Virus record (IMG/VR): IMGVR_UViG_3300005613_000006 | Span: 32,001-96,000 of that record | Source of the DNA: a virus | Reading direction: 5' to 3' (one strand) | DNA length: 64,000 bases | Part shown: positions 8,706 to 45,407 of the stretch, in pieces | Numbering within the stretch: position 1 is the first letter of the stretch | Layout: each line of letters opens with the position of its first letter | The notes under the pieces: model-generated | Seen by the model: the letters and a program-made list of their open reading frames with translations, nothing else | Told to the model about the DNA's origin: nothing | Databases searched by the model: none | Made by a program: the position numbers and the translations under genes

Positions 8706-9824
8706 GTGGCTAATAACCGAATTTTCTACGCCTGCCAAAAAGCCGGAATCGCTCCTGCCGCGTCGTATGCGTTTCAGACTATCCGAGGTCTCCAAACCTT
8801 GGGTATCACAACGACATTCAACCTAGAGCAAGTGTTCGAGATTGGTCAACTGGCAATCTATGAAAATATCGAGGGTATTCCCGACGTGGAAGTTACCACC
8901 GAGAAAGTCATGGATGGGTACTCTCCTGTATACTGTCAAGCAACGCAGGGTTCTCCTGACTCTACGTTGGTTGGTCGCTCAAATTCTATCTGCAACCTTG
9001 GTGTTGCTATCTACGCTGACACAGCACAGTCTGCCTATGGCGCTCCTCTACAGGAAGTCCACATGTCGGGTATGTATGTGTCGAGCATTGGATACAACGT
9101 CACAGTTGATGGAAACGCTACTGAAAGTGTAACCCTCGTTGGTAACAACAAAGTGTGGGTTGGTGTCGCAGGCGAAAGCAACGGCACATTCACTGAAGTG
9201 GTTAATCCTGCTGGTGGTAGCATTCAGAATAACAATGACCAGCCAATGGCAATCAGCGGCTCTGGCGGTGTAAACCGTCGAGAGGACGTATTGTTTGGTT
9301 CAGACCTAGTTCGCCATACCATCTTGCCGCCTGAAATTCCAGGCATCATTGACAAGGGGTTGGGAAGTGGTACGAACGAGTTGGACGGCGACGGTCACTA
9401 CGGTGCCCACGTTCAATCCATAAACATTACCGCTGACCTTGGCCGTGAAGAGTTGTTTGAACTTGGTCGAAAGGGTACGTATCACCGATTCGTAACCTTC
9501 CCAGTTGAAGTTACAAGCGAAATCACCCTGATTGGTATTTCTGGTGACATGATTAGTGCCACTGAAGAAGGAATTTACCAAGTATCTGGTAGTGGTGCCG
9601 TTTGTGGTCGATACAACTTGGAAGACCAAGTAGTTATTCTGCGCTTGTGCGAAGGTCTACAGGTAGACTGCGGCAATAAGAACAAGCTGTCAACGGTCGG
9701 CGTGACAGGTGGAGATGCTGGTGGTGGAAACGTAGAAATTACGTACACCTACACGACATTCAACGACATGGATGTTCAGCACCCTCAAGACCCAGACGCA
9801 ACTACACGTCGAGTCATGCCGTAA
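8706..9824 (+). CDS. Major tail (tube) protein
   Basis: 372 aa, G/T/V-rich beta protein with its own promoter, strong RBS and terminator; precedes chaperones and tape measure; two related motifs (EQVFEIGQ / EELFELGR). Confidence 0.7.
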   Translation: MANNRIFYACQKAGIAPAASYAFQTIRGLQTLGITTTFNLEQVFEIGQLAIYENIEGIPDVEVTTEKVMDGYSPVYCQATQGSPDSTLVGRSNSICNLGVAIYADTAQSAYGAPLQEVHMSGMYVSSIGYNVTVDGNATESVTLVGNNKVWVGVAGESNGTFTEVVNPAGGSIQNNNDQPMAISGSGGVNRREDVLFGSDLVRHTILPPEIPGIIDKGLGSGTNELDGDGHYGAHVQSINITADLGREELFELGRKGTYHRFVTFPVEVTSEITLIGISGDMISATEEGIYQVSGSGAVCGRYNLEDQVVILRLCEGLQVDCGNKNKLSTVGVTGGDAGGGNVEITYTYTTFNDMDVQHPQDPDATTRRVMP

Positions 9825-12565: not shown

Positions 12566-15500
12566 ATGGCACAGCAATTCAACATAGTGGCCCAGCTTTC
12601 GTTGCGCGGCCCCACCAATCTAGCACAAGTCCAACGTCGAATCCAAGCCGGTCTTCGCAACATTCGAGCCGATGTTCAGGTTAACATTGGTCGCGGTGCG
12701 CAAAGAGGTCTGCAACGTACCAATCGACAACTGCGCGATGTAGCCAACACACTGGCCTTGGTAACAGGTAATGCCCAGGCGGCTGCCGCAGCATTGACAA
12801 ACGTGGGGGCCGCGTATGGAGCCGCTGCTGGTGGAGGGGCCGCTGCTGCCCGTGGGGCATCACAGACCGCTGGTGCTATGAGCAACGTAGCCGGAGCTGC
12901 TGGCGCTGCAACATCTTCAATGCAAGAGTTCGGTCGCATCAGTGCTTTGGCTGTGCGTCGATTCCTCGCCTTCTCTATTCCCGCTGGTATCGTTGTCGGG
13001 CTCATCGTAAACATTCGACAAGGGGTCAAGGCCGCTATTGACTTTGAGCGCCAGTTGATTAAGGTTGCCCAGGTAACAGGCAAGACTACAGGCTCGCTGG
13101 CAGATTTGACTGGTGAAGTCACCCGTCTAGCCACAACCTTTGGTGTGGCCTCTGCTGACCTGTTGAATGTGTCTCGTATCTTGGCTCAAACAGGCTTGTC
13201 TGCCAAGGACACCGAGATTGCCCTGCAAGCCTTGGCCAAGTCCGACCTCGCTCCTACATTCGATAGCATCGAACAAACCGCTGAAGGTGCCATCGCTGCT
13301 ATGCGTCAGTTCGGCATCGAGGCCAAAGACTTAGAAGCCGCTCTTGGTTCTATCAACGCTGTTGCTGGTCAGTTCGCTGTAGAATCCGGCGACATCACAA
13401 GCGCTCTGCGTCGTACTGGTGGTGCGTTCCAGGCGGCTGGCGGTGAAATCAACGAGTTGATTGCCCTGTTCACATCTGTACGTGCTACCACTCGTGAATC
13501 TGCTGACAGTATCGCCACTGGTTTCCGTACTATCTTCACTCGTATCCAACGACCACGAACCATCGAGTTCTTGAGAGACTTGGGCATTGAGCTACAGGAC
13601 TTGCAAGGACGATTCGTCGGCCCGTTTGAAACGGTGCGCCGCTTGAACTTGGCCCTTCGCGAACTTGACCCGCGAGACGTTCGCTACTCACAAATCATTG
13701 AGCAGTTGGGTGGCTTCCGTCAGGTATCCAAGGTTATTCCATTGATTCAACAGTTCGACACAGCGCAACAGGCGTTGGCTGTAGCTATCGGTGGAACTAA
13801 CTCATTGACCGAAGACGCAGCCACAGCCCAACAGGCATTGGCAGTACAAGCAGCCAAGGTTGGCGAGCAGTTTCAGGCATTGTTCCGTCGTATCACGGGT
13901 AGCTCCACATTCCAAGTAATCGCTCGTTCAGCCTTGCAGTTGGCTAGCGGTTTCTCCAAAGTCCTAGAGACCCTTGAACCACTGTTGCCACTGTTGACTT
14001 CTCTTGTCGGTTTGAAGTTGGCTCAAGTTGGCACACAATTCGGTCTGGGATTTATCGGCGGTCTCCGCAACGTAGGGACGGCTGCTGCGGGAGTAGCGGC
14101 TGCTGGCCCAGGCACACAACAGGCAGCTACGCAACAACAGCGTCAGTCCACCGTGACTACCGCCAACACCACAGCTATCAGCAGCAACACAACCATTCTA
14201 ACAACTCTGAACACCACGCTCACTACGTTGACAACAGCCGTCAACAATCTTACCCAGCGCATCGGCGGCCTGGGGGGTGGTGGTGTGCGGCGTCCAGCCC
14301 GTGGCGGTCGTATTCACAAGTTCGCTCGCGGCGGTTTAGTTCCTGGCGTTGGCAATGGCGATACCGTCTCAGCACAACTAGAGCCGGGTGAGTTTGTTAT
14401 TCGGAAGAAGGCTGTTGAGAGTATTGGCGCTGACCAACTTGCTGGTATGAACCGCAAGGCTGCCGGTGGCCGTATTTCGATTGAGGGCAAGCCCGGCACC
14501 GATTATGCTGGCTTCTTCTTTAGACCTGTTGGTAAAAGAGACTTGAAAGAACGAGCTAGATACAATAGGACGTTTGCCAATGCTCCACGGGTGGCCGACA
14601 TAGCTAATCAAAAGATGCTTGAACTTGGATTCTCTGGGTTGAAAGCAGTTCAACCTGGGGGTGTAATTCCAGTGACCGGAGGTCCAGGTAAGCGCAAAGG
14701 CCCCATAGATTTCAAGGCTCTGGGTGTGACCAAAAAGGGAATGTTCCAACAACTAAAGGCTAGGGGTGCTATTTCACCAAAACAAGCTGAGAGTTCTTGG
14801 GTTCCTACGGCAGCAAACTTTGAAGGTAAAACTGTCAACAAGCAATTCTTTGCATCTGTTAAAGCGGAGGGTGGTGCTGTTGTACGTGGAACAGGCACAG
14901 GCACATCGCGTGTGACGACGGCTGACGTTGGAAGTGCTGAAAAAATTGGCAGACCAGTTGGCATGGGTATTAGCGTAGGGGTTAGAAGCAGATTCAAGAA
15001 AGTCAGTGACGCTTATCTTGTTCGTTTCCTACAGGGATTTACAACTGGAAGAAAGCCAGCCATGCCCAAACCTTTGGGAGGCGGCGCATTGAGCGTGGGT
15101 AAAGCAACGGAGATTATGAACAAGATTGGAGTGGAATCACTACAAGGTGGAATGTTTGAGGGTATGATTGATGCTGTGGCTGGAGGCGTGCAAGCTGGAA
15201 CCGGCAAGGGGGGCTTCTTTGACCATGTAGTGCCCAACATGAAAAACAAAAGAGCGGTCGATAGTTTGTTCAGCGATGACAAGACCATTGACCGTATCAA
15301 GTATGCCGACGCCAAGAGAACAAGAACAAACCAACAAATCTCTAGTCTGGTGAAAAAGGCTGTAAACACCTTTCCAACCGACCGTAATTCTTTCAATGTA
15401 TTGTATGATTTACCCAAAAGGATTACCGACAAGAACAAGGGCAAGCCCAAAAGAATTGAATTAGCTAAAGGTGGCCCAACCACAGACACCGTTCCAGCTA

Positions 15501-18500
15501 TGCTCACCCCAGGCGAGTTTGTTATCAACAAACGTAGCGCCGACGCTATCGGTTTGAACAAGTTGAACCAACTCAATCGCGCCGACCGCAGCGCTGCGGG
15601 TGGTCGTATACAAGGCTTTGCCGATGGTGGTTTGGTGCAGCGTTTCCAGACAGGCGGCCAGACACAAGCAGCCGCCCAACAAGGAGGAAGCGGCCAGGGC
15701 TTGGCTCTGTTGTTTGCCATCACAGCAATCACCAGCGTAGCATCTAGCCTGACAGAAATGGACAGCGAGTTGGGTAAGACCATCAACACGTTGACCCAGT
15801 TCGCCCTCACCATTGTTACCCTTTCTACAGTCATGTCTAGTATCACCGGACTTGCTGGACAGGGAGGCTTGGTTGGAGCTATACAGAGAAGGTCGGCAGC
15901 GGCAGCGGCGGCACAGCAAGCGACGGGCCAACAATATCAACGTGCTGCGTTGCCGCGTGACCCTGGATTGGGTACATATACAAGTCGAGTCAGAGGAAGA
16001 GGGAGACCTTTTGAGGCTGAACGAACTGCCCGAGTGGCACAGCCGGGAGAAATCCCAGGCCAAAGTCCGGCAGACCGTCAAGCCGCGAGACAGGCCGCAC
16101 AAGCCGCAGCCGCGAGAGCCCCGGTTAGGACTCCGCGAGAAGCTGGTCTTGCTCAGGCCCCAACCTTTGGGACTGCACCAAGAAGAACTGTAGACACGGG
16201 CATTGCTCTCGGTGAACAGGCCGCTCGTCAAGACCGCAGAAGATTAACGGCAGGGCCAGGTTTAAGAGCCTTGGGCAGAGGATTGCGTAGAGCCGGTGCT
16301 GGTCTAGGCAGGATGGCTACTAATGCCAATGCAATGGCGGGAGCTGCAAGCGCGGCTACCGCAGCCCTGCTTATCTTTGGTCAGATGATGCAAAAACAAG
16401 CTGTGGAAGCAGCAAAAACTGCCGGTATTCAAAATGATGTAAATGCACTTCGCAAAGCGGAAGTTAAAGCAACCAAGGGCTGGGTTTTGGCCAAGGCTGG
16501 TCTTGGGGCTGGTGCTGGTGCTGCTATTGGTACACTTATAGCTCCTGGTATTGGAACCGCTATAGGTGCAGCTTTGGGTGGAGTCACAGGTGGTTTAATC
16601 GGCGCTTTGACGGACAACACCAAAGAAGTGCGCGCCGCGTTTAGAGCAGGCAGGGTAGAACAAACTACAGAACTTTTGACCGATTCTCTTAAAAGAGTTT
16701 TGACAGACAGAGCTACGCCAGGAGGAGCAGCCACAGCAGGCATTGGACAGGCTATTGAAGCCCAGATGGACGCCATCACCGAAGCTACGCTAGATGGTCG
16801 TAGAGAAGAAGCCGATTCTATACGCAAGGGCCTCAAGGGGCAACTGTCGCAGTTTGAGGCTTTGAGACAGAAGTTGATTGAGTCTAGTGCAAGCGTAGAA
16901 GAACTGGGGCGTGCGGGAAGAGGCGCTGGCAATATCTTGCTGCGACAAATTGCCTTTCAAACCAATCGAAGTTTCGCAGAGCTGCAACGAGAAACAGCCG
17001 AACTTATTCGCCAACACCAAGAGGCCGCTGCCGCTGCGCAACAAGTGTCTATCAGTTTGGGTGTTTTGGCCGACACCGCCCAAGCCACACAAATCTTCGC
17101 TGGGGCTGTGTCCGACTTAGAACAACAGACCAAGCGAGCCGCTGATACTGCCGGTATTTTTGCTGGTTTAGGAGCGGGGCGTGCCTCTGTGCCCGACTTC
17201 AAAGGAATCTTGGGAGCGCGAGCGTTTGAGCGCGCTGCCACTGGCCAAATTACAGAACAACAAGACCCGCAGTTGCGTTTGGCCATACGACAACTGTTGG
17301 GAACAGGCGAAGCTGCACAACGACTAGAGGGAGAAGTTCTGGCTATTGCTCAACTTACCCGAGAGTTGCCAGCCGTTCTGCGGGATTTGGCTAATGCCCC
17401 TCAGTTGGGAACCGAACAAGATTTAACTCGTCAGTTTTCTGACGCCATTACTGAAAAATTCCCACAAGTTGGGGATGAGCTGCTGGTTGTTATGACAGAC
17501 AGCCTGCGTCAAATCCAAAGAGAAGGTGGCCCTCCTGCGTTGATTCGCCGTATTCGTGCTGACGCGCGAAAAGTAGGTAATGAGCTAATTGGTGGGCGCG
17601 CCAACTTCTTGAAAGACTTGGACAAGGTACAACAAAGTTTCAACAACGTCGTCAAAACCATTAGCCAACTACAGAGCCAAGTATTTGACAGCGAAAAGCG
17701 TATTACCGACGCCAGAATCCAAGGGTCGAAGATTGCGCTGGCCAACGAAATTGCCTTGCGCAAGGCTCGACAGATTGAAGACCCCCTTCCATTAGACAGG
17801 CGCGTGGGCGCTATCCGTGAACAACAAGCTCAGAGAGTGGCGTTTACCGGACTTACGGGAGACCAAGCGCAAGACCCGCAGGCTCTTAGCCGTGCTATCC
17901 AAGGGATTACCGCACAAATCTTAGAGGCCCGTCGCCGTCTGTTTGACGCTTCTATCCAATCGCCAGAAGGCATTCAACAAGCCCAAGTAGAATTGGGTCG
18001 ATTGGTCAATACATCGGCTGTGCTTCGACAAGCCTTGCAAAATTTGGCCACCAGCACTGAAGAGTTCGCGGCGGTTCAAGACGAATTGTCTCGTCTACAG
18101 TCTGAACGTCAAGCGAGACAGGACTTTGTGGTTGACTACTTTGGCAGCACTCGACAACAACAAGTTGAAATAACACGCACGTTGGCTCAAACCTTTGTGG
18201 CGGGCACACGTAATTCATTCGATACATTTACAGAGCAACAGCGCATTGCTATTATTCGCTTTGTTAAGACGTTACGACAAGGTGAAAGAATCGCTGCTTT
18301 GCAAGACAGAACGTCGCGAGAGTTCTTGCGTGACGTTATCGGGGGCACTACGTTTATGAGTGGCGCTCCCATCCCGCCGGAGTTGAGCGACTTGTTTGTT
18401 CAACAGTTTGACCCGTCCTCAGAAGAGGAGCAATTAGCCAATACTCTTGAGCGGCTAGCTGAACGCCAAGCTACAGCCAATGAAGAACTTCGCAAGATTT

Positions 18501-21500
18501 TGGGAGACAACAACAATACGTTGGTCAATAATCTCAACAGCGCCAACGCTCAACAAATAGCTGACATGGCTAGTGACCGCGACCAGCTTGTAAATGGGCT
18601 GAATCAATCGTTTGGTAATTTCTTGCAACAGTTTACTCAGAGACAAAACCAATTTACTGCTGCTAGATTTGAAGCCCGTATTACTGGCGTTGAAACAGCC
18701 AAAACAGCCGCCGAGAAAAATCTGAAAGCAGCAGAACTTGCACAGCAGTTTGCGCGCAATTTAGGCTCAGACTTTGCGGGCTTGACGGAATCAGTCAATC
18801 TTATGAGAGACGTTGCGAGAATTTTTGACGATGTGTCCAAAGCGAGGGAGCAAGAGCAAGTACAACCGCGTATCCGAGAAGCTATCGGCAAGATTGTGGG
18901 CGACATTGAAGTTGCTGTGAAGAAGGGCGTAACTGTTCAAGCTGAAGAGTTGGATGCTTTGTTTGCTGGTCAAGCCGAGGCCCTTGGCCCTGAGACCGAC
19001 AGAATGCCGCTCGGAGCCGCTGGTCGTTCTTTGCAATTTGAATTTTTGAGAGAACTGAGTGAGCCTTTCAAAAGACAGCTTAGAGACCGATTGTTGGCAT
19101 ACCAACAAGCTATTGAAGAACCTTTGACTTATTGGGAGTCTGTTAGAGCTGGCCTTGGCGGAGTTGGCCAGGGAGACATCGACATAAGCGATATTGACCG
19201 CCTGCGCCGTCAAGTTGGTCGAGGCACCAAAATTGGTGCAAGGTTTAGGCTTGCCCGTAGAAATGCTGGCGTGGGGGATGTTCGTGGGGCTTTTGCTGTG
19301 AACACTATTAAGGTGTTGGAAGAGAGGGCTCGTAAAAGTAGAGCATCTGTGCAAGAAGACTTGGCTGGTGTTATCGACACCGAAACCACAAAGTTGCAGG
19401 GCAACATATTTGATTGGCGGAAGGCCATCAAAGATTTGGGCATTTCTGTTGAACAGTACGACCAGTTGGTAAGAGGAGACCAAATTGAGTCGATTCAGAA
19501 AATTACTGAACAGCTTCGAGGCATAGATGTTTCCAAACTGCCAGATACAGTTAATTCATTACAGGGAGAACTGGATAAATTGGCCGCAGCCTTGGAGACC
19601 TTTAACGAGAAGGTTGCCGCTGAAAACAAAGAGGCACAACAACTAAACCAGCAGGCGGTGGCCCCGCCAGCCGGTGTTCCTGTTCCACGCCGCGCCCAAG
19701 GTGGCCCCATCTTCCGCAGACGCGGAACCGATACCGTTCCGGCCATGCTGACCCCCGGCGAGTTCATCGTGAACGCCGCTGCCACGCGCCGCAACCTTCC
19801 TACATTGCAAAGCATTAACCGTGGTGTAGATTACAAGGCTGCCGGTGGCTTGGTGCAATACCTACAAGACGGAGGCGCGGCTCAGGATGTGCAGCCGGTC
19901 ATGGCTGACCCCAACACTGGAAGAGAAGTGATTCAACTTCTACGGCAGATTGCTCAAAACACATCGCGGCCAGCTACAAGACTTGCTACAGGAGGCGCAG
20001 TATTCAAGCCGCGCGGCACAGATACGGTTCCTGCTATGCTTACTCCTGGTGAGTTTGTCGTCAACCGCAAAGCAACACAGCAAAACCGAGGGCTCTTGGA
20101 AGCCATCAACAAAGGAAGCAACGTAGTACATGCTGCGGGTGGGGGCGTTGTGTACGCACAAGCTGGCGGCGAGATACGTCTTAGCTCCAACATTCCAACA
20201 CGAGGCCCAATCTGGGAGGCGTATTTGGAATGGGTACAGAGAAAATACCCCGACCTGTTTGACGATGCTCAAACGCCAGAAGATATTAGCAGGGTTGCCC
20301 GTGCAAGAAATAGACCAGAGTTTTCTGAGGAGACTATTGCTGCTCAACGCAGGGGTCAAAAGCCACAGTTTACTGAGCAAGACGTAAACGAACTGCGTCG
20401 TGTTAGCCAACTAAGGGATGAGTTCCGCCAGTCAACAGCTTATCGTGTCGCGGTTGAAGAACAAAAGCTGGCAAACGACAAGCGCAGAGAAGACCGCCGC
20501 GCAGCCAGCGGCATCCTCCCAATGGAACAACGTCTCAAGATGCTTGGTCGTGTTCCGTATGCAGAGAGACAGCGCAGACGGTATGGAGTTCCCTTGGCAG
20601 ACCGTCAAAGGGCTCTTATTCGTAGAAGATGGGCCGAGGCCAACGCTCGTCGGCAAAGACTGGGCAAACGTCCATTGCCACCACCTCCTCAACTACGAGG
20701 CCAAACGGAAGAGGATAAGAAAAGAGAAGAGGCAGCACGAGCGCCACTACAAGTCAAAGACGTTGCGGGTTTCCAGATTCGAGCAATCAACGAGTCGCGC
20801 ATCCGAGAAATCGCACGTTATACTTCATTAACTGGCAGCAACGCTAGGGATGAAGACCAGAAGTTTATTGCCACGCTGACCGGCGATGAAAAGGCTTTTG
20901 GTAGCTATCTATGGAATAAGTCAAGAGACGCCAGGGCAAAAAGCGTAGAAACTGTTACTGACAAGTTGTCTCGCAATGAAATTTTGACGCCTCAAGATAA
21001 CAGCTTGTTGGATAATCTAACTCGGAGTGAACGAGTCGGTATCGAAGCCGACGCGCAGAGACGCAGGAAGAGAGCTAAAGCCGACGCCTTAGCTGCCAAA
21101 CCTCCTGGGCCGCTGTCAGACGAAGAGTTGAACTTCTTTAGAAGTTTGTCTCCGGCTCAAAAAGACTATGTGCTTCAAAAAAGAAGAGCTGAATATATTG
21201 GTATTGCCACTGGTGACGATGTGGATGCGAGGACTGTAGAAATTGACAGGCTGGCTCGTAAAGCGCTCAAATCACCGGACCTATTGACTGAGACAGAACG
21301 AGAGTTCATCAACAACCTAGATGAAGACAGCCGTAAACTTGGAAGCGCGTTGCTGCGGTTAGAACGTAAGCAACAGGTAGACAGGCAACTACGCATCGAC
21401 CAACTGGCTTTGAAACTTCGTTCAAAGATTGCTGCTGAAAGAGATGTGGCTGCTGGGAAAGACATCGGATTTGACCCGAGCGTACTTCCTGATTTAACAG

Positions 21501-22435
21501 ACGATGAGAAACGGTTTTTCAACACTCTCACAGCCGCAGAGAAAGACCGCCTCAAACGTCGAACAGAGGCGGCTCGTCGAGCAGGTTTTAATACCGTAGA
21601 ATTGTTTGCTCGCGGGGGCGTTGTCCCAGGCATCGGTCATCAAGACATAGTTCCAGCTATGCTGACGCCAGGCGAATTGGTGATTCCAAAGAAGCAAGTA
21701 CAGCACATGGCCCAAGGTGGCATCGTACAGTATTTGCAGAATGGAGGGCCAAGCCGCACCACAACCACTACTTTTGACACAAACACTGGTATGCCTATTG
21801 AAGTAATGGCTAAGGTCGATTTGGAAACCAAGGTCGTCAAGCTAGAAGACAACACAGTAATGCTAGACGCTGGTAGCGCAGCCTCTATGGACGCGCTGGC
21901 CGCCGCTCTTGTAGCGTTTGGTCCGTCCAGCACAGCTTTGGCAACGGCGCTGGCCGGTTTTAACGCCGCCGGTCTTACCGAAGCCGTCACGGGATTCAAC
22001 ACTTCAGTTGGACAGTTGACAACCGCACTGGCTCCCCTGACCGCATTGCAAAACCTCAACCTACAACAACCCGTAGCTGAGTTTGGTGGATATGTGTCGG
22101 CGTTCGGCAACCAAGCCGGAGTCTTTGGTCTTCATGTTGGAACCTTTGGCACACAGGTCGCAGGATTTGGAACACAGGTTTCCAATATGCAAAATGCCTT
22201 CAACTCGTTCACCACGAACCTCGACCCATTGATTGGTCGCTTTGAGGAGGTTGTTGGGGGGTTCCCAGACACCGTGGCAGTTACAGTAACACACGGAGAC
22301 CTCAATGTGAACGTCTTTGGTTTGGATGGCTTGTCTGCCGACCTTGAAGACACTCTTGTAGGAGGCATTCAAGACCGCGTGATGGCAGCAGTCAAGGAAG
22401 AGTTTAGGAACTGGGGAACTGAAGGAGGAACGTAA
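12566..22435 (+). CDS. Tape measure protein, 3289 aa (TP901-type core, TM/glycine-zipper segments, five GG...DTVPAMLTPGEFV repeats)
   Basis: N-terminal TP901-family core (AIDFERQL..VAQVTG, NAVAGQFAVES.DI..AL.R.G, ESADSIATGFRTIFTRI); Ala/Gln-rich helical sequence; position. Confidence 0.92.
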   Translation: MAQQFNIVAQLSLRGPTNLAQVQRRIQAGLRNIRADVQVNIGRGAQRGLQRTNRQLRDVANTLALVTGNAQAAAAALTNVGAAYGAAAGGGAAAARGASQTAGAMSNVAGAAGAATSSMQEFGRISALAVRRFLAFSIPAGIVVGLIVNIRQGVKAAIDFERQLIKVAQVTGKTTGSLADLTGEVTRLATTFGVASADLLNVSRILAQTGLSAKDTEIALQALAKSDLAPTFDSIEQTAEGAIAAMRQFGIEAKDLEAALGSINAVAGQFAVESGDITSALRRTGGAFQAAGGEINELIALFTSVRATTRESADSIATGFRTIFTRIQRPRTIEFLRDLGIELQDLQGRFVGPFETVRRLNLALRELDPRDVRYSQIIEQLGGFRQVSKVIPLIQQFDTAQQALAVAIGGTNSLTEDAATAQQALAVQAAKVGEQFQALFRRITGSSTFQVIARSALQLASGFSKVLETLEPLLPLLTSLVGLKLAQVGTQFGLGFIGGLRNVGTAAAGVAAAGPGTQQAATQQQRQSTVTTANTTAISSNTTILTTLNTTLTTLTTAVNNLTQRIGGLGGGGVRRPARGGRIHKFARGGLVPGVGNGDTVSAQLEPGEFVIRKKAVESIGADQLAGMNRKAAGGRISIEGKPGTDYAGFFFRPVGKRDLKERARYNRTFANAPRVADIANQKMLELGFSGLKAVQPGGVIPVTGGPGKRKGPIDFKALGVTKKGMFQQLKARGAISPKQAESSWVPTAANFEGKTVNKQFFASVKAEGGAVVRGTGTGTSRVTTADVGSAEKIGRPVGMGISVGVRSRFKKVSDAYLVRFLQGFTTGRKPAMPKPLGGGALSVGKATEIMNKIGVESLQGGMFEGMIDAVAGGVQAGTGKGGFFDHVVPNMKNKRAVDSLFSDDKTIDRIKYADAKRTRTNQQISSLVKKAVNTFPTDRNSFNVLYDLPKRITDKNKGKPKRIELAKGGPTTDTVPAMLTPGEFVINKRSADAIGLNKLNQLNRADRSAAGGRIQGFADGGLVQRFQTGGQTQAAAQQGGSGQGLALLFAITAITSVASSLTEMDSELGKTINTLTQFALTIVTLSTVMSSITGLAGQGGLVGAIQRRSAAAAAAQQATGQQYQRAALPRDPGLGTYTSRVRGRGRPFEAERTARVAQPGEIPGQSPADRQAARQAAQAAAARAPVRTPREAGLAQAPTFGTAPRRTVDTGIALGEQAARQDRRRLTAGPGLRALGRGLRRAGAGLGRMATNANAMAGAASAATAALLIFGQMMQKQAVEAAKTAGIQNDVNALRKAEVKATKGWVLAKAGLGAGAGAAIGTLIAPGIGTAIGAALGGVTGGLIGALTDNTKEVRAAFRAGRVEQTTELLTDSLKRVLTDRATPGGAATAGIGQAIEAQMDAITEATLDGRREEADSIRKGLKGQLSQFEALRQKLIESSASVEELGRAGRGAGNILLRQIAFQTNRSFAELQRETAELIRQHQEAAAAAQQVSISLGVLADTAQATQIFAGAVSDLEQQTKRAADTAGIFAGLGAGRASVPDFKGILGARAFERAATGQITEQQDPQLRLAIRQLLGTGEAAQRLEGEVLAIAQLTRELPAVLRDLANAPQLGTEQDLTRQFSDAITEKFPQVGDELLVVMTDSLRQIQREGGPPALIRRIRADARKVGNELIGGRANFLKDLDKVQQSFNNVVKTISQLQSQVFDSEKRITDARIQGSKIALANEIALRKARQIEDPLPLDRRVGAIREQQAQRVAFTGLTGDQAQDPQALSRAIQGITAQILEARRRLFDASIQSPEGIQQAQVELGRLVNTSAVLRQALQNLATSTEEFAAVQDELSRLQSERQARQDFVVDYFGSTRQQQVEITRTLAQTFVAGTRNSFDTFTEQQRIAIIRFVKTLRQGERIAALQDRTSREFLRDVIGGTTFMSGAPIPPELSDLFVQQFDPSSEEEQLANTLERLAERQATANEELRKILGDNNNTLVNNLNSANAQQIADMASDRDQLVNGLNQSFGNFLQQFTQRQNQFTAARFEARITGVETAKTAAEKNLKAAELAQQFARNLGSDFAGLTESVNLMRDVARIFDDVSKAREQEQVQPRIREAIGKIVGDIEVAVKKGVTVQAEELDALFAGQAEALGPETDRMPLGAAGRSLQFEFLRELSEPFKRQLRDRLLAYQQAIEEPLTYWESVRAGLGGVGQGDIDISDIDRLRRQVGRGTKIGARFRLARRNAGVGDVRGAFAVNTIKVLEERARKSRASVQEDLAGVIDTETTKLQGNIFDWRKAIKDLGISVEQYDQLVRGDQIESIQKITEQLRGIDVSKLPDTVNSLQGELDKLAAALETFNEKVAAENKEAQQLNQQAVAPPAGVPVPRRAQGGPIFRRRGTDTVPAMLTPGEFIVNAAATRRNLPTLQSINRGVDYKAAGGLVQYLQDGGAAQDVQPVMADPNTGREVIQLLRQIAQNTSRPATRLATGGAVFKPRGTDTVPAMLTPGEFVVNRKATQQNRGLLEAINKGSNVVHAAGGGVVYAQAGGEIRLSSNIPTRGPIWEAYLEWVQRKYPDLFDDAQTPEDISRVARARNRPEFSEETIAAQRRGQKPQFTEQDVNELRRVSQLRDEFRQSTAYRVAVEEQKLANDKRREDRRAASGILPMEQRLKMLGRVPYAERQRRRYGVPLADRQRALIRRRWAEANARRQRLGKRPLPPPPQLRGQTEEDKKREEAARAPLQVKDVAGFQIRAINESRIREIARYTSLTGSNARDEDQKFIATLTGDEKAFGSYLWNKSRDARAKSVETVTDKLSRNEILTPQDNSLLDNLTRSERVGIEADAQRRRKRAKADALAAKPPGPLSDEELNFFRSLSPAQKDYVLQKRRAEYIGIATGDDVDARTVEIDRLARKALKSPDLLTETEREFINNLDEDSRKLGSALLRLERKQQVDRQLRIDQLALKLRSKIAAERDVAAGKDIGFDPSVLPDLTDDEKRFFNTLTAAEKDRLKRRTEAARRAGFNTVELFARGGVVPGIGHQDIVPAMLTPGELVIPKKQVQHMAQGGIVQYLQNGGPSRTTTTTFDTNTGMPIEVMAKVDLETKVVKLEDNTVMLDAGSAASMDALAAALVAFGPSSTALATALAGFNAAGLTEAVTGFNTSVGQLTTALAPLTALQNLNLQQPVAEFGGYVSAFGNQAGVFGLHVGTFGTQVAGFGTQVSNMQNAFNSFTTNLDPLIGRFEEVVGGFPDTVAVTVTHGDLNVNVFGLDGLSADLEDTLVGGIQDRVMAAVKEEFRNWGTEGGT

Positions 22436-40244: not shown

Positions 40245-40720
40245 GGTCTTTTAGCCTCCACGATGAAATGGTATCCTGTGACACGCTTTTTGATGATAGT
40301 CAATCCCATTGTCGCAAGAAAATTTGATAGACCCAAAGCTGTCAGCGTTATCTTCTTGACAAACTGTGGATTATCGGCGGCGTGTCCGTGCAAATGCGCG
40401 TTGGCTTGATGCACGTCAATCGCATAGGTTGTGAAACCCTTGCAGACCTCATACAAGTCGGTGCCTCCGATAATAAGTGTGCCACCGTGGCGCAGTTTGG
40501 CAACCCAGTGTGACAGTACATCCATCACAATATCTGCTGGCAGATAATCAATCACGTCGTTGGCAACGATTTCTGTGGCCTCGGCGTCGTCCACCCACGC
40601 ACTAAGTTTGAATGTTGGGTCACCAATCTTGAGTTCGTCCGTTTCCTCGGTAGCAAATGGACTGACATTTAGGTAACCGCTTCGCGGTTCCTCTTCTGTG
40701 TACAACAGGTTTATTCTCAT
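40241..40720 (-). CDS. Class I SAM-methyltransferase-like protein
   Basis: GYLNV, EIVANDVIDYL, W..KLRHGGTLII, VEAKRP; probable start MRINL. Confidence 0.6.
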   Translation of the reverse strand: MRINLLYTEEEPRSGYLNVSPFATEETDELKIGDPTFKLSAWVDDAEATEIVANDVIDYLPADIVMDVLSHWVAKLRHGGTLIIGGTDLYEVCKGFTTYAIDVHQANAHLHGHAADNPQFVKKITLTALGLSNFLATMGLTIIKKRVTGYHFIVEAKRP

Positions 40721-41727
40721 AGCGTCACCGCCTTCCTGAATATCTCGTCCCACTTATGTGTGAATCTTTCTAGCGAGAACTTCTCTTCTACAGTTCTACG
40801 TCCTGCCTCCCCAATCTCACGCGCCATAGTTGGGTTGTCCAACAGGGTTTGTGTGTACGCGCGCAACTCTTGAAGGTCGTTCGACACGAATCCATTGACT
40901 CCATGCTCAATCACAATCTCAGGAATGAGACACGTCGCCGTGGACACTACCGGAGTACCACACGCCATCGCTTCCAGAATAACAGTAGGAAGGGAGGACA
41001 CGGTTGTTGTGTTGAGGTAGACCGAGGCGGTGTTGTAGGCTTCAATCAGGGCCTCGACCGACTCAGCCGGTTCGGACAATCCTGGTGTACCGCCCAAAAC
41101 CTTGACTGGAATTATCGAGCCCTTGCCGGTAACTTGCTCCCAGATACGGTAGCCACAGCACCAATCCCTATTTATCCAGTCGTTACACACCGACAAAACT
41201 ACCTTTTCACGCTCCATATCCAGCGGTCGGAACATTTCCAGGTCAAGACCAGTGTGGTTCACTTCGCCGTGGTCGTCTGGGAAGCCCCAGGCTTGGCGAC
41301 CGTACTCGCTCACGAACACGTCAATGTCGCCACTCATTTCCCTGGCTTGCGCCTTCTGGACCTCAGTGTATTCCGGCATGGGCAGTGTATGTTCCATACT
41401 GATAAGTGGCACCTTCAATAGGTTGGATAACGCCTGCCCATACTGGAATTGTCCTACTTTGTTTTGTGATAGTATCACGTCAATGTCAACCCAGTGTGGA
41501 ATCTGGTCGTCGCCCATGCGCGAATCAAGCAGCATGTAGTTGGGTGGCACCGGAGCGTAGTCTTTGTTCCAGTCCTTAATCCCTTCTGCTCTCCACGCAT
41601 AGAAGTTGTGACCACACTGACACATCATGGTTTCGTAGCGCTCATGCGTCGGAAACGTCAGGATGTTCAAGGGTTCATCTTCGCCGCGCGTGGCGTAGCG
41701 AAGGAGTGTGTGTATTTGACTTGGCAT
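40717..41727 (-). CDS. Glycosyltransferase family 4 (GT-B)
   Basis: VFVSEY, GLDLEMFRP, LPTVILEAMACGTPVVST, IEHGVNGF, IGEAGRRTVEEKFS. Confidence 0.9.
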   Translation of the reverse strand: MPSQIHTLLRYATRGEDEPLNILTFPTHERYETMMCQCGHNFYAWRAEGIKDWNKDYAPVPPNYMLLDSRMGDDQIPHWVDIDVILSQNKVGQFQYGQALSNLLKVPLISMEHTLPMPEYTEVQKAQAREMSGDIDVFVSEYGRQAWGFPDDHGEVNHTGLDLEMFRPLDMEREKVVLSVCNDWINRDWCCGYRIWEQVTGKGSIIPVKVLGGTPGLSEPAESVEALIEAYNTASVYLNTTTVSSLPTVILEAMACGTPVVSTATCLIPEIVIEHGVNGFVSNDLQELRAYTQTLLDNPTMAREIGEAGRRTVEEKFSLERFTHKWDEIFRKAVTL

Positions 41728-42063
41728 TCAATCTTCCTTCCTGTGAATCTGCAACATACGACCATCTTGCAAAGCAATTTCTCCTGGTCTCTTTCCATGC
41801 CCACAACAACTTCCCCTCATATCAATGCCTGCGGCTTGTAGCGCGGCTACTATTGGGGCAACACATGCGTCGATTTGTGCAAATTTCCATTTTTCTTTTC
41901 CGGTACAACTTAGGTCGGCGGGAATCTTGACGTATACACCAACGGGCTGTTTTCCACATCGCTTACACGGGCGAACACCGGCTGTTTCACCTGTGTCTAC
42001 CCAGACCCATTGTGAACCATTCCACACAATTTCATGTCCGTGTGATTCGCTAGTTGCTGTCAT
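41728..42063 (-). CDS. Hypothetical Cys-rich protein (IDxC...AL...GI....SCCGH motif)
   Basis: RPCKRCGK plus IDACVAPIVAALQAAGIDMRGSCCGHG. Confidence 0.55.
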   Translation of the reverse strand: MTATSESHGHEIVWNGSQWVWVDTGETAGVRPCKRCGKQPVGVYVKIPADLSCTGKEKWKFAQIDACVAPIVAALQAAGIDMRGSCCGHGKRPGEIALQDGRMLQIHRKED

Positions 42064-42542
42064 TGAAAATCTGCTTTTAATATCCTCTTGGCCGCTTCTC
42101 TATCCATCATTGCAAGGCTCAAATCTACGTTATGTTCTTCCCAGCCGTAAAAGCCAGCACGTCGCGGTTCGCCTATCCCAAATACTTTTTGAACAGCGGC
42201 TTCACTGACAATACCGTGGTCTCTAGCCAGTAGGATTTCCCTTCGAGTCTGCTCATCCATTTGGTCACACCCCCAGAGGCGCATCTCTTCCATTGCCTCG
42301 GGGCTAACGAACAAGTCGTTTAACTTTGAGGTATCTGGTTGGGGCAGCTTGGCAGTACGCTCAAGAATCTCTCGTAGCTCTTGCTTAGATAGAGTCCGAC
42401 AATCACATAGGAGACCTGGGCCAGGATTGGGGTTCCACCCATCATCAGTCACAACCACCTTCGGTGTTTCTTCGGCCTTGACCAGCGCTGCCGGTGCAAG
42501 CAGGGCAGCCACACAGGCTTTGAGAAAGTTACGTCTTTGCAT
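42060..42542 (-). CDS. Tat-signal protein carrying major-capsid-protein-derived segments
   Basis: MQRRNFLK plus hydrophobic h-region plus VKA; aa 73-108 match MCP 201-236 (26/36 identical) and aa 127-137 match MCP 310-320 (10/11). Confidence 0.8.
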   Translation of the reverse strand: MQRRNFLKACVAALLAPAALVKAEETPKVVVTDDGWNPNPGPGLLCDCRTLSKQELREILERTAKLPQPDTSKLNDLFVSPEAMEEMRLWGCDQMDEQTRREILLARDHGIVSEAAVQKVFGIGEPRRAGFYGWEEHNVDLSLAMMDREAAKRILKADFQ

Positions 42543-43134
42543 GGTCTTTGTCCTTCAAAAAGTCTAACGGAAACTCAGGACAAGCCATAGGCGGAAGCCG
42601 TTGAATGTCAAACCCTTTTGTGTCCTCAACAAACTGCATGTAGTCTGCTACATATCTATCAGCGGCTTTCTGGTCCACAATCTCAATCTCCGAAGTAACC
42701 TCTACCGGAAAGTCTACCATTCGGTGGTACGGCGCGCGGCGTCCAAGTTCCCAAAGTTCTTCCCTCTCCATCTGTTCGACTGTCTTCCACTGATGGTGAG
42801 CAAGCATGTCTGAAAATTCACCATCGGGCACTATACATTTGTCAATGTCCTCCTCTTTGAAGACGGCGTTAGGGCGATAGTCTTGATATACGCGCTCACA
42901 CTCTTCCAAAAACGCTTTCAGTCCCTCGTTGGCATGGTTTGTTGCCTCGATATTCTTCTCGAAACTCTTTCTCAGCAGACTCATAGCCCGCTCAACACCC
43001 TCCCACCGTGGTTCTTTGACGTTATCCAGCACAAAATCAACTGGTGGTTCAGGCTTTGCAGTCACGGTCTTGACCAACGCTAGCGGAGCCAGCAGGGCAG
43101 CCGCCGCAGCCTTTAGGAAACCTCTTCGTTCCAT
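42529..43134 (-). CDS. Tat-signal protein carrying tail-tube- and MCP-derived segments
   Basis: MERRGFLK plus h-region; aa 124-150 match tail tube 247-273 (21/27), aa 33-60 match MCP 116-143 (12/28), aa 180-193 match MCP 62-75 (10/14). Confidence 0.8.
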   Translation of the reverse strand: MERRGFLKAAAAALLAPLALVKTVTAKPEPPVDFVLDNVKEPRWEGVERAMSLLRKSFEKNIEATNHANEGLKAFLEECERVYQDYRPNAVFKEEDIDKCIVPDGEFSDMLAHHQWKTVEQMEREELWELGRRAPYHRMVDFPVEVTSEIEIVDQKAADRYVADYMQFVEDTKGFDIQRLPPMACPEFPLDFLKDKDHAKT

Positions 43135-44378
43135 TTGTCTATTCCTTCGATGCTGTGTTGTTGAGTTACGTCTACCAGTCTCCCCTTGCCAGACCAGTAT
43201 TGATAATATGGTCCTTTACTCCCCAGTTCTCCCTCAAGGGCTTCCTTCATTTGCTCGCCCACCGCTTGATAGGAGAAGTCATAAGCGCGGTCAATACCAA
43301 TGTCAGCCCTTTGTTTTCTTTTATCCTCCTGCTCGAACGCTTCACGCATGGCTCTCTGCAATCCGCGAATGCTGATGCTTTCCCAATTCTCGTTTCCTTG
43401 GAAAAGGTCGGGCATGATGTTGTCGGCGGTCATACCGAAACAGGGCTCTGTGTGTGTGGGAACCAACCACCCGCCCAAACCGCCACCCTTTTCTCCAGCG
43501 GGTCGGTAGATGAATTCGCTCATGCCTCCAACTTGAGAACAGATTGGAGTCTTTCCCATTGCCATAGCGTCAAACGCTGGGATACACCAGCTTTCACCAT
43601 AGGACGGCATCACGAAGCAGTCACACGTATTGTGTAGCATCATCATCTTCTGTTCGTCAAACCGTTGCGTGATGATGATTTCGCCAAGGAAATCATCCTC
43701 GTTGGGATACAGCTTCAACTCTCGTTTGATTTGGACACAGATTTCCTGCACATGTTTGTCGCACTCGCCAGCGGGCATACCGCTTAGATTAGCCTTAATC
43801 ACTAGCGTAACAGGCTCCGACTTACGGAATTCTAAATGATAGGCTTTCAGCAGAGCGGCCAAGTTCTTGCGCCTCGTCACTTCGCCAATCGTGTAGAACA
43901 CAAACTTGCCGCGAAGTTGTGGTATCTTGATTTTCTCGTAGTGACGAGCATACTTGCTTGGGTCACATGGAACTGGCATCACACGCATTGGTCTTTGAAC
44001 ATAACTGTTGGTCGAAGCGCGTAGCATTTGTTCATTGCATACCCATGCTTCATCCATCAAGTTCAATCGCTCGGCCCAGAAGGCGTTGCGGAAGTGGCTG
44101 GTTTCACTATGGAACAACCCGATATTCTTATCAAAGTGTCCACAGTAATCCATCATGTGTGGCAGTATATGTTGAATCACAACATCACAGCCTTCATCAC
44201 TCTGGGCTTCCAGTTCTACGATACGCTCTGGCACTTCAACCTCGGCGTCGTTCAACTTGATTGGTCGAGGCACAACCTCAACGCCTGCGGCATCCAGTGC
44301 GAGGATGTAGTTTTCAGCCGCGTGACTCCATCCGGTGCCATCTCGATAAACACCCAAAAATAAAACTTTATTTGACAT
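43113..44378 (-). CDS. Glycosyltransferase family 4
   Basis: TGWSHAA..Y..AL, FYTIGE..RRKNL, DCFVMPSYGESWCIPAFDAMAMGK. Confidence 0.88.
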   Translation of the reverse strand: MSNKVLFLGVYRDGTGWSHAAENYILALDAAGVEVVPRPIKLNDAEVEVPERIVELEAQSDEGCDVVIQHILPHMMDYCGHFDKNIGLFHSETSHFRNAFWAERLNLMDEAWVCNEQMLRASTNSYVQRPMRVMPVPCDPSKYARHYEKIKIPQLRGKFVFYTIGEVTRRKNLAALLKAYHLEFRKSEPVTLVIKANLSGMPAGECDKHVQEICVQIKRELKLYPNEDDFLGEIIITQRFDEQKMMMLHNTCDCFVMPSYGESWCIPAFDAMAMGKTPICSQVGGMSEFIYRPAGEKGGGLGGWLVPTHTEPCFGMTADNIMPDLFQGNENWESISIRGLQRAMREAFEQEDKRKQRADIGIDRAYDFSYQAVGEQMKEALEGELGSKGPYYQYWSGKGRLVDVTQQHSIEGIDKWNEEVS

Positions 44379-44919
44379 GTTGAGTTACCTTCTTGCACAA
44401 TGCGACGAATTCATCATGTGTTAGATTCCATTTCATCGTCTGGATTGATTTGTATATCCAATGGATGTTATTTTTAGTGTAGCCTTTAGAAGAGTCGATG
44501 CGGTCTAATGACGCCAAGTTGTCTTTTTTGTTATCTCTTTTTGTTACACCCTTGGGTAGCGTTAAGCATAAGCCAGTATATGGACAAACGCCACCTTGTT
44601 TTATCCACTGTTTCCATAAGTCTTTTGGCATCACTTTGACAGCAATATCTCGCTTATTGGCATTTCGTTGGACACGATTAAAGTATGCGCCATATATCCC
44701 TTCGTGTCCAGAAAATCCAGATGCGTTTTTACCGCGAGATAGACAACCACAGCTTCGTGTTTTGTTGCCAGTTAAGTGATACTTCTTAACTTCTGTAGTA
44801 TTGCCACATTCACATTGACATAACCACCATTCGTGTCGCTTGCGTGTTTTTGCTATTTTGATTGCTGTTAATAGACCAAACTTCTGACCAGCAATGTCTT
44901 TCCAATTCTTGTGTCTCAT
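44368..44919 (-). CDS. HNH-family homing endonuclease
   Basis: GQKFGLLT, WLCQCECG, RSCGC, CPYTG, ASLDRIDSSKGY...NIHW; AT-rich. Confidence 0.85.
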   Translation of the reverse strand: MRHKNWKDIAGQKFGLLTAIKIAKTRKRHEWWLCQCECGNTTEVKKYHLTGNKTRSCGCLSRGKNASGFSGHEGIYGAYFNRVQRNANKRDIAVKVMPKDLWKQWIKQGGVCPYTGLCLTLPKGVTKRDNKKDNLASLDRIDSSKGYTKNNIHWIYKSIQTMKWNLTHDEFVALCKKVTQHVK

Positions 44920-44927
44920 TGTACTTC

Positions 44928-44974: not shown

Positions 44975-44983
44975 CTGGGGACA

Positions 44984-45406: not shown

Positions 45407-45407
45407 G

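What the first reader, a model, noticed from the sequence alone, without database searches (positions are those of the whole stretch)
42060..43134. Candidate new system: Tat-signal proteins built as mosaics of the phage's own capsid and tail-tube segments (virion mimics/decoys)
Seen in sequence: two adjacent, overlapping genes start with related twin-arginine signal peptides (MQRRNFLKACVAALLAPAALVKA and MERRGFLKAAAAALLAPLALVK). Their bodies are patchworks of short segments matching the MCP (2678-3685) and the tail tube (8706-9824) encoded 33-40 kb away on the other strand, joined by unrelated linkers. Codons differ at many synonymous sites while residues are kept (MCP CGA CGT GCT GGT TTC TAC GGT TGG versus CGA CGT GCT GGC TTT TAC GGC TGG), which suggests selection on the peptide and not a recent copy or assembly artefact. 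Established: virion proteins assemble in the cytoplasm and lack Tat signals; MCPs and tail proteins are triggers of anti-phage sensors (e.g. CapRel binds an MCP). Inference: these are membrane-targeted or exported epitope arrays that could (i) titrate host sensors of structural proteins, (ii) interfere with assembly or entry of related superinfecting phages, or (iii) tether nascent heads and tails to the membrane or to the flanking glycosyltransferases. I know no described family with this architecture.
Basis: partly seen in the sequence, partly recalled or inferred. Interest (0 to 1): 0.93.

Follow-up and report, generated by a model that had tools for sequence, protein, structure and literature searches.

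The report
Tat-exported mosaics of phage late-protein blocks
A large uncultured phage, which also carries its own TatA export gene, encodes small export-signal proteins stitched from shuffled copies of the most conserved pieces of its own capsid, tail-tube and other late proteins; I found this family described nowhere, and it may act as a decoy.

Summary
ORF A (42060-42542, 160 aa) and ORF B (42529-43134, 201 aa) start with Tat-type signals. They share significant blocks with the phage's own capsid protein (MCP) and tail tube (E 1.5e-12 and 7.6e-11). Synonymous sites are saturated while up to 70% of residues are kept, so these are old copies under purifying selection.

The 173-kb genome holds three more such genes: a third Tat mosaic, a signal-less protein with a tube block, and a half-MCP paralogue. 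It also encodes its own TatA.

A profile search of 1.84 billion proteins found about 30 further Tat-signal proteins carrying the same blocks in permuted order. Some also carry blocks from the tape measure, a distal tail protein and the terminase. Another 42 signal-less mini-proteins carry the tube block.

Five related phage genomes lack both the mosaics and tatA. No fold or family match was found.

Function is unproven. My best guess (about 0.33) is that these are mimics of conserved late-protein patterns that engage host sensors and are routed to the Tat translocase. Rivals are envelope superinfection exclusion, assembly interference, glycosylation co-substrates and peptide signalling.

The scan noted this stretch before only on this same genome.

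The parts
42529..43134 (-). ORF B, 201 aa: a Tat-type signal followed by a mosaic of MCP spine-helix block, tube block T3 and MCP E-loop strand
   Evidence: homologue P0004 in L001
42060..42542 (-). ORF A, 160 aa: a Tat-type signal followed by two MCP A-domain blocks joined by a short linker
   Evidence: homologue P0002 in L001
43057..43134 (-). Signal peptide of B (aa 1-26): RRGFLK, Ala/Leu h-region, VTA end
   Evidence: Sequence. TIGR01409 scores 16.0 bits against a cut-off of 16.7; PF10518 scores 14.6 bits
42474..42542 (-). Signal peptide of A (aa 1-23): RRNFLK, h-region, VKA end
   Evidence: Sequence. PF10518 is the only export-signal model among the (sub-threshold) matches, 11.7 bits
42174..42332 (-). 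A aa 71-123: copy of MCP block 200-246 (numbered from Met26), a strand plus helix
   Evidence: HMM i-E 6.6e-14; BLASTP E 1.5e-12
42132..42170 (-). A aa 125-137: copy of the MCP C-terminal block (10/13 identical, exact 8-mer)
42946..43041 (-). B aa 32-63: copy of the MCP block just before and at the start of the spine helix
42670..42825 (-). B aa 104-155: copy of tube block T3 (strand-helix-strand, tube 229-276)
   Evidence: HMM i-E 3.3e-11
42556..42597 (-). B aa 180-193: copy of the first E-loop strand of the MCP (MCP 87-100), out of order relative to the MCP
   Evidence: The same block follows T3 in P0014
2678..3685 (+). Major capsid protein, donor of the MCP blocks (the ORF is open from 2603; the likely start is the ATG at 2678)
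8706..9824 (+). Tail tube protein, donor of blocks T1-T3
12566..22435 (+). Tape measure protein (3289 aa). Its conserved C-terminal motif is a block in family members P0072 and P0114
25461..29852 (+). 1463-aa distal tail protein. Residues about 1069-1145 are a block in the third Tat protein and in P0006, P0009, P0011 and P0125
55421..55936 (-). Signal-less paralogue of the C-terminal half of the MCP (171 aa, 33% identical to MCP 159-360), lying in the replication operon
41728..42063 (-). Cys-rich 111-aa gene that overlaps the stop of A. Its homologue follows the A-like gene in L001
43113..44378 (-). GT1 glycosyltransferase whose end overlaps the start of B
40717..41727 (-). GT1 glycosyltransferase downstream in the same operon

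Best explanation
What it is. A and B belong to a family of phage accessory proteins that I could not find described. Each is a small (about 120-250 aa), acidic, hydrophilic polypeptide with no confidently predicted fold. Each has a Tat-type signal peptide followed by permuted copies of the most conserved sequence blocks of the phage's own late proteins. In A and B the donors are the capsid protein and the tail tube. In relatives they also include the tape measure, a distal tail protein and the terminase ATPase.

Shown:
- the architecture;
- purifying selection on the blocks;
- the blocks track the phage's own donor proteins;
- the genes recur in many uncultured phages with the blocks shuffled;
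- they lie on the replication / DNA-modification strand;
- the phage carries its own tatA.

Inferred mechanism. The proteins are made before the late proteins. They act as competitive mimics of the conserved late-protein patterns that host factors recognise, such as Avs-, CapRel-, Lit- or DSR2-type sensors. Their Tat signal takes the mimic, possibly with a bound partner, to or through the Tat translocase, whose capacity the phage raises with its own TatA. This would keep such host factors away from the genuine capsid, tube and terminase proteins.
For: - The blocks are significant and old. Most synonymous sites are saturated and up to 70% of residues are identical.
- A's blocks match its own MCP best of 55 family MCPs, whereas blocks from other phages' homologues do not (ranks 30, 51 and 53). 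B's and D's tube blocks match their own tube best or equal best.
- About 30 further Tat-signal cluster representatives and 42 signal-less ones carry the same blocks in different orders.
- The donor set is MCP, tube, tape measure, distal tail protein and the TerL Walker-B region. This overlaps the proteins and regions reported as targets of bacterial pattern-recognition sensors: the MCP A-domain interface, a tube hairpin, a conserved tape-measure segment, terminase and portal (PMC13581612).
- The neighbours are counter-defence-like. In the window they are DnaE, SSB, a GT4 matching PF20706 'GT4-conflict', NUDIX and a sugar-modification operon. In relatives they are T4-type RNA ligase and PNKP.
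- Distribution is patchy. Five related genomes, three of them complete, have neither mosaics nor tatA.
- The phage encodes TatA (45.4 bits, E 9e-13).
- The mature parts are acidic and hydrophilic (pI 4.8, GRAVY -0.6 to -0.8) and lack a confident fold.
Against: - No partner is known, no sensor was examined, and the host is unknown.
- A copy of a trigger would be expected to activate a sensor rather than block it.
- Export removes the mimic from the cytoplasm, where known sensors act. The 'capture and export' step is pure inference.
- The Tat-signal HMMs score just below their curated cut-offs.
- The terminase block rests on one protein (P0114).
- Gene timing is inferred from strand and neighbours only, and no expression data could be obtained.
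- Counter-defence neighbours are weak guilt by association.
Confidence: 0.33

Rival explanations
1. Envelope-level superinfection exclusion or superinfection sensing. The proteins are exported early to the periplasm. There the tube, tape-measure and distal-tail blocks bind the matching parts of an incoming sibling phage's tail as it crosses the envelope, blocking or reporting a second infection.
For: - Tat-type signals plus a phage tatA.
- The genes lie on the replication strand.
- Three donors (tube, tape measure, distal tail) do cross or enter the envelope during infection.
- The blocks track the phage's own lineage, as homotypic exclusion would require.
- Distribution is patchy and accessory.
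- From my own knowledge: T4 Imm/Sp and HK97 gp15 are early envelope proteins of this kind.
Against: - MCP blocks are the commonest blocks along with T3, yet the capsid never enters the periplasm.
- A terminase Walker-B block has no target there.
- Signal-less versions exist.
Confidence: 0.2
2. Assembly interference or assembly control. The blocks are subunit-interface pieces that dock onto unassembled capsid or tube subunits. This could poison the assembly of co-infecting relatives (as Tab/Tai-type tail-assembly blockers do), or hold or tether the phage's own subunits at the membrane.
For: - The blocks are the conserved strand/helix elements of the donors, rich in conserved charged residues.
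- The many signal-less 60-80 aa proteins are essentially tube block T3 alone.
- Defence by blocking tail assembly is established (PMC10884400 and PMC11364771, listed).
Against: - The blocks resemble the phage's own proteins most, so its own assembly would be poisoned too.
- Export would remove the inhibitor.
- Close relatives assemble without these genes, so the role is not a core assembly one.
- The terminase Walker-B block is not an assembly interface.
Confidence: 0.15
3. Co-substrates of the flanking glycosyltransferases. The blocks are the acceptor or docking determinants by which phage glycosyltransferases recognise capsid and tube. A and B are glycosylated in the cytoplasm and therefore need Tat, not Sec, to be exported as glycoproteins.
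For: - A and B lie between two GT1 genes inside a 12-kb sugar operon.
- The third Tat mosaic lies among Fringe-like and nucleotide-sugar transferases.
- Capsid and tail-tube glycosylation by phage enzymes is known in mycobacteriophages (Freeman et al. 2023, as cited in PMC12619734).
- It would explain the use of Tat.
Against: - In other phages the genes sit beside RNA ligase, PNKP, HNH and Zn-ribbon genes with no glycosyltransferase.
- The blocks are core segments, not Ser/Thr-rich tails.
- Terminase and tape-measure blocks are unlikely glycan acceptors.
- The GT cluster adjoins replication genes and includes a 'GT4-conflict' enzyme, which fits DNA modification as well.
Confidence: 0.1
4. Peptide signalling or protease bait. 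The exported arrays are cut by the phage's own secreted trypsin-like proteases into peptides that act as signals, or they occupy those proteases.
For: A Sec-signal trypsin-like protease lies two genes upstream of the third Tat mosaic, and this synteny is kept in L084. A second secreted protease lies near tatA.
Against: No receptor or import gene was seen. This does not explain why the blocks should copy late proteins. A and B have no protease neighbour.
Confidence: 0.06
5. Non-functional debris from illegitimate recombination, for example after homing-endonuclease cuts.
For: Many HNH genes are present, one of them two genes upstream of B with a glycosyltransferase gene between.
Against: The ORFs are intact with Shine-Dalgarno sites. 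Synonymous sites are saturated while residues are conserved. The signal and blocks are conserved across about 30 clusters from independent metagenomes.
Confidence: 0.03

Closest known systems
Hitchhiker Tat substrates (for example hydrogenase small subunits, DmsA)
   Same: A canonical RRxFLK signal on a small protein. Tat is the only route that can carry a protein, or a complex, formed in the cytoplasm. The ESM feature search placed B near Tat-signal clusters as a weak lead (score 0.81-0.83).
   Different: There is no cofactor domain, no known partner and no confident fold. The cargo is a patchwork of phage late-protein blocks, and the genes are phage-borne together with a phage tatA.
Triggers of bacterial pattern-recognition immunity (Avs families, CapRel, Lit/Gol peptide, DSR2)
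   Same: The same donor proteins and regions: the MCP A-domain, the tail tube, a conserved tape-measure segment and the terminase (PMC13581612). That paper states that Lit and CapRel detect the MCP through short sequence motifs.
   Different: Those are host sensors of genuine late proteins. No phage-encoded array of trigger fragments is mentioned in that paper, and I know of none. No binding to any sensor was tested here.
Tail-assembly blockers Tab and Tai
   Same: Small accessory proteins of mobile elements that act on the tail assembly of related phages (PMC10884400, PMC11364771).
   Different: I did not compare sequences. As far as I know, those are not reported as copies of tube or capsid segments and carry no Tat signal.
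Early envelope superinfection-exclusion proteins (T4 Imm/Sp, HK97 gp15, T5 Llp)
   Same: Small accessory proteins placed in the envelope by an infecting or resident phage (my own knowledge).
   Different: They use Sec, lipoprotein or transmembrane targeting and do not resemble virion proteins.
Phage virion glycosylation systems (mycobacteriophage capsid and tube glycans)
   Same: Glycosyltransferase clusters linked to exactly these two virion proteins (cited in PMC12619734).
   Different: Those systems have no exported mimic proteins, and the glycans sit on C-terminal tails.

Membership tests
Tat (twin-arginine) export substrates | Twin-arginine consensus (S/T-R-R-x-F-L-K) within the first residues | tested here: met
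   A has RRNFLK and B has RRGFLK at residues 3-8. Apart from the third mosaic ORF C, the only other match to the motif search in the genome is an unannotated 76-aa ORF at 123597-123827, and that ORF has no hydrophobic stretch after the motif. The motif is conserved in about 30 family members.
Tat (twin-arginine) export substrates | Hydrophobic h-region followed by an AxA-type signal-peptidase site | tested here: met
   A 13-15 residue Ala/Leu/Pro stretch is followed by VKA (A) or VTA (B).
Tat (twin-arginine) export substrates | Score above the curated cut-off of the TAT_signal models (PF10518, TIGR01409) | tested here: inconclusive
   These are the best-scoring or only meaningful models, but all are below cut-off. 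B: 16.0 against 16.7 bits (TIGR01409) and 14.6 against 22.7 (PF10518). A: 11.7. P0004: 18.4.
Tat (twin-arginine) export substrates | A Tat translocase is available, and export depends on it | not testable with these tools
   The phage encodes TatA (PF02416, 45.4 bits) but not TatC. The host is unknown and dependence needs an experiment.
HK97-fold major capsid proteins | Complete fold: N-arm, E-loop, P-domain with spine helix, and A-domain, in one chain and in order | tested here: not met
   A covers only MCP positions 200-246 and about 310-320. B carries two short MCP blocks out of order. The AF2 model of A shows only helices (pTM 0.23).
Tail tube proteins (Phi812 / Phage_tube_2 type) | Complete tube domain | tested here: not met
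   B holds only tube positions 225-263 of 348 profile positions.
Phage anti-defence decoys or sensor inhibitors | Direct binding to, and inhibition of, a host immune sensor | not testable with these tools
   No host or sensor sequence is available. PADLOC gave no match.
Tail-assembly blockers (Tab/Tai) | Sequence or fold relationship, and a block of tail assembly | not tested
   Only the papers were located. No reference sequences were at hand.

The most novel reading that the evidence does not exclude
A phage-run 'capture and export' counter-defence. Arrays of conserved late-protein patterns, made early, bind the host's cytoplasmic pattern-recognition sensors. They then carry the sensors as hitchhikers to or through a Tat translocase that the phage reinforces with its own TatA. 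The cell would be disarmed before capsid, tube and terminase appear.
Probability: 0.12. Interest if true: 0.97.

Novelty: categorically new. Interest (0 to 1): 0.88.

Why it matters
If the proteins are what the sequence suggests, phages have evolved a modular way of copying the unchangeable parts of their own late proteins into a separate, exported polypeptide, and they support it with a viral copy of a host export component.

This matters for three reasons:
- It gives a concrete, testable handle on how phages cope with immunity or competition aimed at conserved structural proteins, a question opened by the recent finding that bacterial sensors recognise most of the core phage proteome.
- It would be, to my knowledge, the first role for the Tat pathway in phage infection.
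- The blocks themselves mark which segments of capsid, tube, tape measure and terminase are recognition surfaces.

Tried and rejected
Searches and models that gave nothing useful:
- Pfam, PHROGs, NCBIfam and PADLOC found no family for A, B, C or D.
- tblastn against 50,697 GenBank phages found no match for A, B or the tube, and only phage G for the MCP.
- The word-indexed search of 5.8 billion proteins found one homologue each. Only the exhaustive profile search revealed the family.
- AF2 of the MCP with 56 close homologues failed (pLDDT 40), so the blocks could be placed on the HK97 fold only by secondary structure and general knowledge of the fold.
- AF2 of A with a 12-row alignment gave pLDDT 62 and pTM 0.23, helices only. 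The ESM Atlas model of B has pLDDT 0.47.
- Co-folding B (residues 24-201) with the tube gave no verdict (score 0.00, controls not run). This is neither support nor evidence against binding.

Ideas rejected:
- A DNA- or RNA-level explanation (recent copy, gene-conversion cassette, nucleic-acid decoy): nucleotide identity is 47-60% in six of the seven blocks (74% in the 13-residue C-terminal block) and synonymous sites are saturated in six of seven.
- The layout as a general property of tatA-bearing phages: in a complete 57.6-kb tatA phage, the Tat-signal protein resembles none of that phage's own proteins.
- An exact-pattern scan for the family's signal peptide in IMG/VR found one unrelated 48.5-kb phage with no tatA.
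Full report
**1. The observation**

On the minus strand, ORF B (42529-43134, 201 aa) and ORF A (42060-42542, 160 aa) overlap by 14 nt. Each is preceded by a GAAGGA ribosome-binding site. Both begin with M-x-R-R-x-F-L-K, an Ala/Leu-rich stretch and an AxA-type end.

BLASTP of both against all six-frame ORFs of the window gave these matches:
- A 72-108 to MCP 225-261 (26/37 identical, E 1.5e-12).
- An exact 8-mer of A in MCP 335-342.
- B 104-153 to the 372-aa tail protein at 229-276 (26/51 identical, E 7.6e-11, with an exact 9-mer).
- B 32-60 to MCP 140-168 (E 0.002).
- B 180-193 to MCP 87-100 (E 0.045).

In B the two MCP pieces are out of order relative to the MCP. In A, 73 MCP residues are replaced by an 18-residue linker. 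The quoted codons are exact.

Nei-Gojobori counts on seven shared blocks give pS 0.58-1.19 and pN 0.16-0.42. In six of the seven blocks pS is at or above 0.77, so the copies are old and the peptides are under purifying selection.

- The MCP matches phage G gp27 (6wkk, E 7e-8) and phrog_2522. It belongs to a very large uncultured MCP family that is about 70% identical.
- The 372-aa protein resembles Phi812-type and Phage_tube_2 tail tubes. A 3289-aa tape measure follows it.

**2. The same genome holds more**

The window is bases 32001-96000 of a 172,878-bp virus record. A scan of the record with the MCP and tube sequences found three more related genes:
- *ORF C*, a third Tat-type ORF at genome 134435-134851 (138 aa). 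It ends in a copy of the MCP E-loop (15/29 identical) and also carries a block of the 1463-aa distal tail protein.
- *ORF D*, a signal-less 238-aa ORF at genome 21078-21794 with tube block 115-151 (E 1e-5).
- A 171-aa paralogue of the C-terminal half of the MCP at window 55421-55936, inside the replication operon (E 1e-27).

An all-against-all comparison shows that short-fragment sharing of this kind is confined to these late proteins.

The genome also encodes a TatA-family protein. It is 73 aa, scores 45.4 bits on PF02416 (E 9e-13, above the cut-off) and has the usual transmembrane helix, hinge and amphipathic helix. No TatC was found.

**3. It is a family**

The word-indexed protein search found only one other contig. 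That contig has both genes adjacent in the same order, both with the signal and the same blocks, followed by a homologue of the 111-aa Cys-rich gene that follows A.

An exhaustive profile search of 1.84 billion cluster representatives, using B plus its homologue as query, gave 179 hits. They sort as follows:
- 53 are tube-sized proteins.
- About 30 are 120-250 aa proteins with the same, strikingly conserved, twin-arginine signal.
- 42 are complete signal-less small proteins.

Profile HMMs of the MCP and the tube place the blocks in each protein. The same blocks recur but in different orders. For example:
- MCP 294-336, then MCP 192-234, then tube 214-259.
- MCP 157-237, then tube 215-255, then MCP 111-154.
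- MCP 68-129, then tube 217-263, then MCP 200-247.

Other members add further blocks:
- the tube N-terminus;
- the tube 117-154 block;
- a tape-measure motif;
- the distal-tail block;
- in one case, the Walker-B region of the large terminase (14/34 identical, E 3e-6).

Many signal-less members are 60-80 aa and are little more than tube block T3. Several of them end in a CxC...GCxCG motif.

**4. Evolutionary behaviour**

A's two blocks match its own MCP better than or as well as any of 55 family MCPs. Blocks from homologues in other phages rank 30th, 51st and 53rd against this MCP. B's and D's tube blocks match their own tube best or equal best. The blocks therefore follow the donor proteins of their own lineage.

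Five related genomes with the same MCP family, three of them complete, contain only full-length MCP and tube. They have no small block proteins, no such signal and no tatA. The genes are accessory, patchy, multi-copy and rapidly reshuffled.

**5. Fold**

- The mature parts are acidic and hydrophilic (pI 4.8, GRAVY -0.6 and -0.76).
- The ESM Atlas model of B has pLDDT 0.47.
- AF2 of A with 12 family rows gives locally confident helices but pTM 0.23.

From the secondary structure of the poor MCP model and general knowledge of the HK97 fold, I infer the following placement:
- the A blocks are an A-domain strand-helix and the C-terminal hairpin region;
- the B blocks are the start of the spine helix and an E-loop strand;
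- C holds the whole E-loop hairpin;
- T3 is a strand-helix-strand of the tube.

This placement is inference, not a measured result.

**6. Context**

In the window the genes lie on the strand that carries a DnaE split by an HNH gene, an exonuclease, SSB, a PD-(D/E)XK nuclease, NUDIX and a 581-aa GT4 that also matches 'GT4-conflict'. The same strand then carries a tightly packed sugar operon (GT1, GT2, nucleotidyltransferase, epimerase/dehydratase and a probable methyltransferase) in which B and A sit between two GT1 genes. C lies among Fringe-like and nucleotide-sugar transferases, downstream of a secreted trypsin-like protease.

In other phages the Tat mosaic lies in a conserved run instead: T4-type RNA ligase, PNKP, HNH, Zn-ribbon, a small signal protein, the mosaic, and further on a RecA-like gene. 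The glycosyltransferase link is therefore not general. An early or middle accessory, counter-defence-like neighbourhood is the common feature.

**7. Mechanism**

Four points constrain the mechanism:
- Block order does not matter, so each block probably works as a local unit.
- The donors include a non-virion enzyme, and the blocks are the most conserved segments, so 'surface epitope of the virion' is too narrow.
- The set of donors and regions overlaps what bacterial pattern-recognition sensors have been shown to bind (PMC13581612).
- The use of Tat, and a phage tatA, say that routing to the Tat translocase matters. Tat is the one pathway that accepts proteins or complexes formed in the cytoplasm.

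I therefore rank a mimic-and-sequester counter-defence first, at about one in three. Its weak point is that a trigger copy might activate rather than block a sensor.

The rivals are:
- Envelope-level exclusion of sibling phages. It fits tube, tape-measure and distal-tail blocks but not capsid or terminase blocks.
- Assembly interference. It fits the T3 mini-proteins but not export, nor the closeness of the blocks to the phage's own proteins.
- Glycosyltransferase co-substrates. It explains Tat and the local context but not the other contexts.
- Protease-linked peptide signalling.

Decay debris is excluded by selection and conservation.

**8. Comparison with what is known**

No library holds the family. 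A full-text search for Tat together with capsid and phage terms gave nothing relevant. A 2026 review of the Tat system mentions phages only in connection with SlyD and the PhiX174 lysis protein and in its reference list, with no phage tat gene or phage Tat substrate.

Nine other IMG/VR contigs encode TatA relatives, in several cases with a small Tat-signal ORF directly upstream of tatA. In the one complete genome examined, that ORF does not resemble the phage's own proteins. Phage Tat modules may therefore be broader than this family, while the block mosaics are specific to this MCP lineage.

**9. Earlier notes of the scan**

The same stretch was noted before only on this genome, in overlapping windows.

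Noticed in passing
outside the window: G000:C1:152075-152212 (-), = L092:5045-5266 (-): The phage encodes a 73-aa TatA-family protein (PF02416, 45.4 bits). No TatC was found. Five related genomes lack it. Nine other IMG/VR contigs carry relatives, in several cases with a small Tat-signal ORF directly upstream.
   Followed up: partly
window 55421-55936 (-): A signal-less 171-aa paralogue of the C-terminal half of the MCP (33% identical, E 1e-27) lies between a PD-(D/E)XK nuclease and DnaE.
   Followed up: partly
outside the window: G000:C1:134435-134851 (-) = L082:7435-7851 (-): A third Tat-signal mosaic (138 aa) carries a distal-tail-protein block and the MCP E-loop. A homologue with the same layout and synteny is in L084.
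   Followed up: yes
outside the window: G000:C1:21078-21794 (-) = L083:6078-6794 (-): A 238-aa signal-less protein in the early region carries tube block 115-151 (16/37 identical, E 1e-5).
   Followed up: partly
proteins P0014, P0035, P0116, P0131, P0147: Signal-less mini-proteins made of tube block T3 end in a recurring CxC-x8-9-GCxCG cysteine motif of unknown nature.
   Followed up: no
window 32867-47571 (-): About 15 kb of sugar-metabolism genes directly adjoin the replication genes: several GT1/GT2/GT4 (one matching 'GT4-conflict'), a nucleotidyltransferase, an epimerase/dehydratase and NUDIX. This could serve DNA hypermodification or virion glycosylation.
   Followed up: no
window 48493-53908 (-): The DnaE-type polymerase is split into two ORFs (finger/HHH part and PHP/NTPase part) by a 355-aa HNH-like gene at 50874-51941 and an exonuclease gene.
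   Followed up: no
outside the window: G000:C1:26841-30233 (+) = L091:841-4233: The large terminase (1130 aa) carries an intein with a LAGLIDADG endonuclease domain.
   Followed up: no
window 12566-22435 (+): The tape measure protein has 3289 residues, which implies a very long tail. It has an internally repeated C-terminal motif (around residues 2390 and 2487).
   Followed up: no
L082:8311-9261 (-) and L092:1107-3293 (-): Two phage-encoded trypsin-like proteases have Sec-type signal peptides. One lies two genes upstream of the third Tat mosaic. The other (728 aa, Pro-rich, with a transmembrane segment) lies near tatA.
   Followed up: no
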